Below are positions 23,266-24,589 of a DNA stretch of 64,000 nt, piece after piece. A program made the position numbers and the translations under genes. The notes beneath the pieces were generated by a model, which worked only from the letters and a program-made list of their open reading frames with translations, was not told the DNA's origin and did no database searches. Positions within the stretch are counted from its first letter, which is position 1. Each line of letters starts with the position of its first letter. The DNA is taken from assembly GCF_037042905.1 (NCBI RefSeq), contig NC_087251.1, forward strand, positions 15,874,001 through 15,938,000. The letters run 5' to 3'. Origin of the DNA: Lytechinus pictus. Lineage: Eukaryota.

Positions 23266-23437
23266 ATATATATTATATATATATATATGTGTAAAGTTAT
23301 ACATGTACAACAGCTTTGGCAACTCTTTTATTTAAATATTGTAAAGAAATGGATGAAGAGAACAATGGTAGGCGTAGCTTAAATCAAGGTTCCCCAGAGC
23401 TATCTACCCTTTGGAAAAATTGGTGATGCCGAAAAAA

Positions 23438-23509
23438 TGTCTCTGCCGGGAATCGAACCCGGGCCCCCAGCTTTGAACGCCGGTGCCTTAACCACTAGAC
23501 CACAGAGAC
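23438..23509 (-). tRNA. tRNA-like gene with UCA anticodon (repeat-borne; copy 1)
   Basis: Exact reverse complement of the 24097-24168 copy; T6 directly downstream on the minus strand. Confidence 0.6.
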
Positions 23510-23948
23510 GGGTTAGTGGCTAGGGCGACCCCGATCCGATTGACCGTCAGATAGACAGATTTTCGACACTATACCAATTATAATTTCCTTTGTCGGGTGA
23601 AGGTGGGTTTCGAACAATGACAAGCCGCCATGCTTCAGCTGGATCAAAGCTATTGCTTTGATACAGTACACGAGAAAGTATACAAATGTGTAAAGTTATA
23701 CATGTACAACAGCTTTGGCAACTCTTTTATTTAAATATTGTAAAGAAATGGATGAAGAGAACAATGGTAGGCGTAGCTTAAATCAAGGTTCCCCAGAGCT
23801 ATCTACCCTTTGGAAAAAATATATATATATATATATATTATATATAGTGTGAAAGAAATGGATGAAGAGAACAATGGTAGGCGTAGCTTAAATCAAGGTT
23901 CCCCAGAGCTATATACCCTTTTTGGAAAAATTGGTGATGCCGAAAAAA

Positions 23949-24021
23949 TGTATCTGCTGGGAATCGAACCCGGGCCCCCCGGCTTTGAACGCCGGTGCCT
24001 TAACCACTAGACCACAGAGAC
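23949..24021 (-). pseudogene. tRNA-like gene with UCA anticodon (copy 2, mutated)
   Basis: Same sequence with substitutions in the acceptor and T stems and one extra variable-loop base; anticodon loop unchanged. Confidence 0.55.
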
Positions 24022-24096
24022 GGGTTAGTGGCTAGGGCGACCCCGATCCAATTGACCGTCAGATAGACAGATTTTCGACAACATAGCCACTAACCC

Positions 24097-24168
24097 GTCT
24101 CTGTGGTCTAGTGGTTAAGGCACCGGCGTTCAAAGCTGGGGGCCCGGGTTCGATTCCCGGCAGAGACA
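24097..24168 (+). tRNA. tRNA-like gene with UCA anticodon (repeat-borne; copy 3)
   Basis: GTCTCTG-TG-GTCT-AGTGGTTA-AGGC-A-CCGGC-GTTCAAA-GCTGG-GGGC-CCGGG-TTCGATT-CCCGG-CAGAGAC-A. All four stems pair; A box and B box present; anticodon TCA at 24130-24132; TTTTTT at 24169-24174. Confidence 0.62.
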
Positions 24169-24589
24169 TTTTTTCGGCATCACCAATTTTTCCAAAAAGG
24201 GTAGATAGCTCTGGGGAACCTTGATTTAAGCTACGCCTACCATTGTTCTCTTCATCCATTTCTTTCACACAATATTTAAATATAAAAGAGTTGCCAAAGC
24301 TGTAGTACATGTATAACTTCACACATTTATATATTATATATATATGTGTATATATATATATTATATCTCATTAAACAGGGAATACGAGTGCGGAGCCACT
24401 CGCGAAAATTTTACACTTTACATAATGACGTGACATATTTTTTTTTCAAGTCTTTTCTCTTCTCTTCTCTTCTCTTCTCCTTTCCCTTTCCTTCTTCTTT
24501 GTTTTTTCTTTCCCCTTTCACCCTTTTCGCCTCCAATAGGGGGGGGGGGGGGGGCGGCGCTCAGGCCCCCAATATCCGCCTATGCTCAG

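What the first reader, a model, noticed from the sequence alone, without database searches (positions are those of the whole stretch)
24097..24174. Repeat-borne tRNA cloverleaf with a UCA (opal/UGA-reading) anticodon and its own Pol III terminator
Seen: a 72-nt sequence folds with a 7/7 Watson-Crick acceptor stem, 4-bp D stem, 5-bp anticodon stem, 4-nt variable loop, 5/5 T stem with TTCGATT, discriminator A, then TTTTTT. The 7-nt loop GTTCAAA places TCA at positions 34-36. Two copies are identical (23438-23509 minus, 24097-24168 plus) and a third is mutated. Established: tRNA-Sec has a long variable arm and an extended acceptor/T helix, so this is not tRNA-Sec; SINE heads usually lose acceptor pairing and read on into a body instead of terminating at once. 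The D-arm and T-arm resemble tRNA-Glu-type genes. Inference: a mobile element may carry a discrete, transcribable opal-suppressor-like tRNA, which could matter for UGA read-through or for elements whose ORFs contain in-frame UGA. Caveat: G32 is non-canonical and the loop could be a slipped Glu(TTC) loop in a non-functional tRNA mimic.
Basis: partly seen in the sequence, partly recalled or inferred. Interest (0 to 1): 0.8.

Follow-up and report, generated by a model that had tools for sequence, protein, structure and literature searches.

The report
tRNA-carrying Penelope-type selfish repeat
The stop-codon-reading tRNA shape is real, but it is one built-in module of a 405-base jumping repeat with about 1,900 copies, its anticodon differs between repeat subfamilies, and it likely serves the repeat's own RNA life cycle rather than reading stop codons.

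Summary
In detail: a 72-nt cloverleaf, 21/21 pairs, TCA at 34-36, G32, then T6. It lies in the middle of a ~405-bp repeat unit. The genome has 1,165 exact copies plus T5 and about 1,900 heads. Insertions look Penelope-like: (TA)n flanks 40/40, 5' truncation 39/40, inversions 23/40, arrays up to 42 full units. Intact Neptune-type elements are present and their ORFs have no in-frame TGA.

The suppressor reading is weak. The most diverged subfamily has TCC (Gly), TCT is common in a run of another organism, and G32 is near-fixed. The unit RNA is predicted to fold into a rod (z -7.8) that masks all but the anticodon arm. The stems differ from host Gly/Glu tRNAs by 17-19 substitutions, yet every pair holds.

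Best reading: a ribozyme-less, retrozyme-like non-autonomous Penelope derivative whose tRNA module gives a promoter and a handle for host tRNA-processing enzymes. One untested route is TSEN/RtcB circularisation through a G32:C35' bulge-helix-bulge. This scan found the same repeat before on other pieces of this genome.

The parts
24097..24168 (+). tRNA-like module (72 nt, loop GTTCAAA) in the inverted, 5'-truncated copy (unit positions 169-400)
24169..24174 (+). T6 run: Pol III terminator-like, also predicted to pair with an upstream GUCGAAAA in a full unit
24084..24322 (+). Inverted 5'-truncated copy of the unit with the ~40-nt 3' extension, ending in (TA)n
   Evidence: 96% to unit 169-400
23836..24080 (-). 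5'-truncated copy (unit 123-362) ending at the inner 3' end in (TA)n; holds the mutated third tRNA 23949-24021
   Evidence: 95%
23690..23818 (-). 5'-truncated upstream partial unit (272-400) forming a partial tandem (pseudo-LTR-like)
   Evidence: 100%
23291..23690 (-). Complete ~400-bp unit, predicted rod-like RNA
   Evidence: (z -7.8)
23438..23509 (-). tRNA-like module of the complete unit, identical to 24097-24168
23510..23569 (-). Antisense leader predicted to pair with the D arm, T arm, 3' acceptor strand and T run (41 of 72 tRNA nt pair upstream)
23266..23290 (.). (TA)n target microsatellite and the last bases of the element at its 3' end

Best explanation
The tRNA cloverleaf is an internal module of a young ~405-bp repeat that inserts like a Penelope-like retroelement, is likely mobilised in trans by Neptune-type elements, and likely keeps the tRNA shape for its own RNA life cycle rather than for decoding UGA. 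Shown: unit, copy number, insertion anatomy, subfamilies, intact fold, variable position 36, no intact hammerhead found. Predicted: full-length RNA folds as a rod in which a leader masks the acceptor, D and T arms and leaves the anticodon hairpin. Inferred: the A/B boxes give a Pol III promoter in the upstream copy of a tandem, and host tRNA-processing enzymes take the place of the retrozyme hammerhead. The route I favour, untested (about 0.25): in a transcript with two heads the anticodon arms swap strands. G32:C35' and C35:G32' then close a 4-position helix with two U.U in the middle, flanked by 3-nt bulges (36-38). TSEN would cut after 37 in both heads, RtcB would close the exactly unit-length piece into a circle, the rod would shield it from RNase P/Z, and Penelope RT would roll round it to give the tandem arrays. 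TCA most likely arose from TCC by a C36A change at a position that the element does not constrain.
For: 1,221 candidates and full units 95-100% identical in the listed matches; 1,896 heads with A36 against 27 with no A at 34-36: 17 TCC, 6 TCT, 3 TCG, 1 TTC. In 40 loci taken in order along contig C1: TA flank 40, truncated piece 39, both strands 23, head-to-tail 19; two fixed 3' ends about 40 nt apart. This matches the anatomy given for PLEs in PMC8557442 section 6. One insertion has 42 full units, 28 identical and the rest one edit away, with PLE-type ends. Intact RT + C-terminal GIY-YIG families are in the genome, several ending in (TA)n. Rod z -7.8; without the tRNA z -4.0; acceptor stem probability ~0 in the unit against 0.997 in tRNA+U6. 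21/21 pairs kept despite 19 (vs Gly) or 17 (vs Glu) stem substitutions; random control 7 and 26 of 200,000. TCC group most diverged, 6.1% vs 4.5% and 1.3%. G32 changed in only 21 pattern matches, 14 of them to A at a CpG. In flies a G-C proximal pair works as well as C-G (PMC6614914 section 20). RtcB circularises animal retrozyme RNAs in vitro (PMC7229834 passages).
Against: No autonomous partner with clear 3' identity was found: best match 30 of 2,000 shuffles, among 8 families tested. The strand-swapped duplex is less stable than two hairpins, -10.4 vs -13.0 kcal/mol. The rod masks the mature domain that eukaryotic TSEN reads. In flies, unpairing helix positions 2-3 inhibited tricRNA formation, and these are U.U here. 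No relative with 32/35 covariation was found. No truncation peak at position 38. Subfamily changes in the rod show no compensatory pairs, and several break predicted pairs. The T6 and a second T5 should stop most Pol III. The parent tRNA may be an isotype I did not sample, which would weaken the compensatory-change argument. Long arrays can also grow by unequal exchange after insertion.
Confidence: 0.68

Rival explanations
1. Promoter plus passenger: a tRNA gene with its terminator was captured into the rod tip and only supplies Pol III A/B boxes; read-through of T6 in tandems makes the template, and the intact stems reflect an unsampled parent tRNA and the family's youth.
For: A and B boxes are perfect. 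All subfamilies lie within about 6% of each other, so little decay is expected. About 11 5' ends fall at tRNA positions 3-14 after removing host-tRNA hits, against about 5 per 10-nt bin. RNA-type contigs run through the T6. This overlaps with the best explanation and differs only in giving the fold no role.
Against: None of the host tRNAs sampled (Gly, Glu, Ser, Asn, Ala, Lys, Sec) is closer than 49/72. An ordinary SINE found shows the usual loss of stem pairing. An antisense leader that masks the fold is unexplained.
Confidence: 0.25
2. Real or accidental opal suppressor: Pol III makes a discrete pre-tRNA from many of the 1,165 perfect copies, which is trimmed, given CCA, charged and reads UGA.
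For: The +1 to U6 transcript lacks the masking leader and forms the acceptor stem. TCA groups vastly outnumber TCC and need at least two separate rises or a reversal (4 changes on a poorly resolved tree). Six loci (five insertions) have a canonical pyrimidine 32, TCA and 21/21 pairs.
Against: G32 is non-canonical. The acceptor stem differs from host Gly at pairs 2-71 and 3-70, which from recalled identity rules should hinder GlyRS. Position 36 varies. No UGA-containing partner ORF was found. Copies decay with pair-breaking changes.
Confidence: 0.1
3. Ribosome or translation-factor docking: the tRNA mimic (or the exposed anticodon hairpin) brings the RNA to ribosomes making Penelope RT, possibly at a UGA stop, to capture the nascent protein.
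For: The anticodon hairpin is the one tRNA part kept in the rod (probability 0.99). TCA groups expanded most. The most abundant young Neptune-type family ends its ORF with TGA.
Against: That family has a different 3' end and did not show (TA)n ends; the TA-ending families examined stop at TAG or TAA. TCC and TCT forms were also mobile. No direct test.
Confidence: 0.07

Closest known systems
Animal non-LTR retrozymes (PMC7229834, passages read; bioRxiv 10.64898/2026.07.22.740005, first fifth and passages read)
   Same: Non-coding 170-400-nt class unit, dispersed and tandem copies, strongly self-paired RNA, link to Penelope-like elements, RtcB as candidate ligase.
   Different: No intact type I hammerhead found in the unit (Rfam; by-eye check). 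Carries a complete tRNA cloverleaf; the 2026 preprint has no occurrence of 'tRNA' in its main text. Circular RNA not shown here.
Penelope-like elements and non-autonomous derivatives: Neptune, Naiad, Chlamys MRC1 (PMC8557442, abstract, section 6 and passages read)
   Same: 5' truncation, partial tandems, inverted 5' copy, 30-40-bp one-sided tail, (TA)n targets, multicopy head-to-tail insertions.
   Different: No ORF; internal tRNA module; no clear 3' sequence identity to any autonomous family found. Naiad selenoproteins use SECIS and host tRNA-Sec, not their own tRNA.
tRNA-derived SINEs
   Same: tRNA-related A/B boxes in a non-autonomous retroelement.
   Different: The tRNA is internal, about 180 nt from the unit start, fully paired and followed by T6; insertion anatomy is PLE-like, not LINE-like.
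tricRNAs and circularly permuted tRNA genes (PMC6614914 section 20 and passages; PMC3978253 passages)
   Same: A unit read from position 38 of one head to 37 of the next has the layout of a type II (37/38) permuted tRNA with a ~330-nt intervening sequence.
   Different: Known intervening sequences are 1-74 nt and the product is a working tRNA; the helix here would hold two U.U mismatches; not shown to be cut.
tRNA-Sec and opal suppressor tRNAs
   Same: UCA anticodon, A37-A38.
   Different: 72 nt, short variable loop, 7/5 fold, G32; the host has its own tRNA-Sec.

Membership tests
tRNA-Sec | Long variable arm, 9/4 acceptor/T fold, ~87 nt | tested here: not met
   72 nt, 4-nt variable loop; true tRNA-Sec found elsewhere
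Functional opal suppressor tRNA | Complete cloverleaf with UCA at 34-36 | tested here: met
Functional opal suppressor tRNA | Canonical pyrimidine at 32 | tested here: not met
   G32 in all three consensuses; 7 pattern matches with C or T
Functional opal suppressor tRNA | Anticodon conserved across the family | tested here: not met
   TCC subfamily, TCT and TCG copies; TCT 200.7 of 395.1 depth in run X16
Functional opal suppressor tRNA | Processed, CCA-added, charged, reads UGA | not testable with these tools
   only assembled contigs of long-RNA-type runs were available
Non-autonomous Penelope-like element | 5' truncation, partial tandems, inverted 5' copy, one-sided tail | tested here: met
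   against PMC8557442 section 6
Non-autonomous Penelope-like element | (TA)n microsatellite targeting as in Neptune/Naiad | tested here: met
   40 of 40 loci
Non-autonomous Penelope-like element | 3' sequence shared with an autonomous PLE | tested here: inconclusive
   only a CTACG-type motif in 4 of 8 families; best alignment 30 of 2,000 shuffles
Non-LTR retrozyme | Type I hammerhead in each unit | tested here: not met
   no hammerhead family among Rfam matches to E 10 on two tandem units; Neptune hammerhead cores were found by a pattern, the unit shows only partial look-alikes by eye
Non-LTR retrozyme | Tandem units of a few hundred nt with self-paired RNA | tested here: met
Non-LTR retrozyme | Abundant unit-length circular RNA | not testable with these tools
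   contigs cannot show circles or ends
tRNA-derived SINE | tRNA head at the 5' end running into a body, LINE-type 3' tail | tested here: not met
   head is internal, T6 follows, PLE-type ends
TSEN substrate (BHB-like) | Strong proximal pair at 32 and 3-nt bulge in a dimer | tested here: inconclusive
   geometry fits on paper, energy 2.6 kcal/mol worse than two hairpins; middle positions U.U; no covariation data

The most novel reading that the evidence does not exclude
A retrozyme-like selfish RNA that replaced its hammerhead ribozyme with a tRNA: tandem heads form a bulge-helix-bulge, the host tRNA-splicing endonuclease and RtcB make a unit-length circle, an antisense leader hides the circle from RNase P/Z, and Penelope RT rolls on it; as a by-product the genome carries over a thousand UCA-anticodon tRNA genes.
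Probability: 0.22. Interest if true: 0.85.

Novelty: new variant of a known kind. Interest (0 to 1): 0.5.

Why it matters
If the tRNA module replaces the ribozyme, it shows a new way for a selfish RNA to be cut and circularised, by borrowing the host's tRNA-splicing machinery. It would also give a small natural substrate for the poorly understood Penelope insertion mechanism. Even in the plain case, an animal that tolerates more than a thousand perfect UCA-anticodon tRNA genes is a test case for how cells avoid stop-codon suppression. Such copies will be mis-annotated as tRNA-Sec or suppressors, as ARAGORN does here.

Tried and rejected
Selenoprotein-Naiad partner: prompted by PMC8557442; the PLE ORFs found all have a C-terminal endonuclease and no in-frame TGA; a protein search for an N-terminal-endonuclease query gave none among 8 of 150 hits inspected, so Naiads in this genome remain untested. 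Other G32 families in the genome: none (33 matches were all this family by matched sequence; 5 matches at or below control). tRNA-Arg(TCT) as parent, a recalled likeness: two pattern searches found no such gene. Marks of tRNA modification in inserted copies: A58 0 of 118, G9 2 of 118 changed. A mobile C32 subfamily: L457/L458 are one duplicated insertion. An intact-hammerhead relative from a loose contig end: one unrelated hit. L031-type Neptune as partner: 3' likeness not above shuffles. RNA level and ends: template-switch adapters show cDNA libraries and one run gives summed contig depth up to 3e5, but contigs cannot give level, strand or ends and no silent control was laid; the depth step at the tRNA start coincides with an indel in that sample and was not used. 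The Rfam tRNA search of the genome returned only Lys-type genes. Supplementary files of the papers were not opened; repeat libraries such as Repbase or Dfam were not available, so the family may be catalogued there.

Full report
Observation. The 72-mer at 24097-24168 and its twin at 23438-23509 are identical and each is followed by T6; a third copy is mutated. ARAGORN labels them tRNA-SeC by anticodon and Rfam scores them as ordinary tRNA at 60.9 bits. All 21 pairs form. The host's true tRNA-Sec is a different 87-nt gene at two loci.

What carries it. The head occupies about positions 182-253 of a ~400-bp unit (window 23291-23690, minus). In the window the insertion is a full unit, a truncated partial upstream, a second truncated copy and an inverted truncated copy, all set in (TA)n. 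A genome search gave 1,221 candidates. Exact patterns count 1,896 heads with A36 and 1,165 perfect 72-mers plus T5; many of these sit in arrays. In 40 loci taken in order from the first matches on contig C1, 40 have TA flanks, 39 a truncated piece, 23 both strands and 19 head-to-tail joins. 3' ends fall at two fixed points about 40 nt apart. PMC8557442 (abstract, section 6, passages) lists these features for Penelope-like elements, including non-autonomous head-to-tail derivatives. One insertion holds 42 full units, 28 identical and the others one edit away, with a truncated start, an inverted piece and TA ends. Near-identical sequence occurs in runs labelled as four organisms.

Possible mobiliser. 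[quoted passage not shown] Five full ORFs of 896-1026 aa have no internal stop, and each family has a hammerhead-type core shortly before its 3' end. The repeat lies next to 5 of the 30 such loci, which shared TA targets can explain. No family shares clear 3' sequence with the repeat; a CTACG motif occurs in 4 of 8, and the best alignment is reached by 30 of 2,000 shuffles. The partner is therefore inferred, not found. Naiads were not testable.

Anticodon history. Copies without A at 34-36 number 27: 17 TCC, 6 TCT, 3 TCG, 1 TTC. From 146 distinct long copies, a set enriched for variants by my searches, three groups emerge: TCC (24 copies, 6.1% from their consensus), an older TCA group (12, 4.5%) and a young TCA group (110, 1.3%). 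Position 36 is the only tRNA position that differs between their consensuses, against 13-26 differences elsewhere. With that column removed the groups still cluster (4 changes against 28.8 shuffled), but the tree is poorly resolved and unrooted. TCC-first rests on divergence and on the match of GTTCCAA to the host Gly(TCC) loop CTTCCAA. In run X16 of organism D the A36T change has 200.7 of 395.1 depth. Against a pure accident: TCA groups are far more numerous than TCC.

Fold. The head matches host Gly(TCC) at 49/72 and Glu(TTC) at 48/72. The differences are mostly in stems (8 and 7 pairs changed on both sides), yet all pairs hold; random substitution at the same sites does this in 7 and 26 of 200,000 trials. 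Only some host isotypes were sampled. After insertion copies decay: 31 pair-breaking against 16 pair-keeping stem changes in 44 copies. So any selection acts on the mobile master, not on the copies. The whole unit folds as a rod at z -7.8, z -4.0 without the tRNA. A leader pairs with 41 of the 72 tRNA bases, the T6 pairs with an upstream A run, and only the anticodon hairpin survives. Forcing the cloverleaf in a circular unit costs about 23 kcal/mol. These are predictions; subfamily changes give no compensatory support.

Mechanism. Animal retrozymes are tandem units cut by hammerheads and closed by RtcB (PMC7229834 passages), and a preprint ties them to PLEs. This repeat has their build but no intact hammerhead. 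The tRNA can supply a promoter, and its fold suggests an enzyme reads it. The oddest base, G32, would pair with C35 of the next head if two anticodon arms swap strands. That leaves 36-38 as bulges and an 'intron' of exactly one unit, the layout of a 37/38 permuted tRNA (PMC3978253 passages). A G-C proximal pair is tolerated in flies, but unpaired middle positions are not (PMC6614914 section 20), the duplex is 2.6 kcal/mol less stable than two hairpins, and no covariation could be found. I noted this idea in my notebook before consulting earlier findings; two earlier notes propose the same, which is not independent support. RNA evidence is thin: cDNA-type contigs cover the unit and run through the T6, one begins inside the element and continues into flank, but contigs cannot show ends or level.

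Suppressor question. A Pol III transcript from +1 lacks the masking leader, so discrete tRNA-like RNA is plausible. G32, the changed acceptor stem, the variable position 36 and the absence of UGA-containing partner ORFs argue against a selected decoder. Six loci from five insertions have C32 or U32 with TCA and 21/21 pairs and are the best candidates for accidental read-through.

Novelty. Nine full-text searches, of which searches were aimed at it, listed no paper whose title or abstract start describes a tRNA-bearing, ribozyme-less PLE derivative; most listed papers were seen only as listings, and repeat databases were not available. Verdict: real feature, a new variant of non-autonomous Penelope-like/retrozyme elements; suppressor function unlikely; interest 0.5.

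Noticed in passing
L377-L404 (G000:C4:9.70-9.74 Mb): In a tandem tRNA-Lys(TTT) cluster some copies read as anticodon TTA (ochre), with extra changes in the D and anticodon arms; 8 calls in overlapping loci, a few distinct copies. Probably amplified pseudogenes.
   Followed up: partly
L454, L455, L457, L458, L460, L462: Copies of the element with canonical C32 or T32, TCA and 21/21 pairs; five are followed by T6; L462 is truncated almost exactly at the tRNA start.
   Followed up: partly
L305-L309 and over 100 further places: A very young, abundant Neptune-type family with a 909-aa ORF and a hammerhead core about 20 nt from its 3' end; unlike its relatives it did not show (TA)n ends.
   Followed up: partly
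L438-L440 (G000:C2:8.866-8.884 Mb); L444, L468-L470 (C28, C317): Long arrays of the element; those on small contigs C28 and C317 look like satellites with higher-order periodicity.
   Followed up: partly
window:22450-23265: Two ~410-bp related repeats with the terminal motif TTGCAAAAGGGGTTAGG in inverted arrangement, MITE-like.
   Followed up: no
window:24561-25400: Frameshifted LINE-type reverse transcriptase fragment (Pfam RVT_1, E 6e-26), not part of the element.
   Followed up: partly
L154-L274 (metagenome contigs): An abundant ordinary tRNA-headed SINE in two metagenome data sets, with weak stem pairing and no T run after the head.
   Followed up: no
L085, L086, L092, L100: Several older copies have truncation or inversion junctions at tRNA position 27-30, the base of the anticodon hairpin.
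   Followed up: partly
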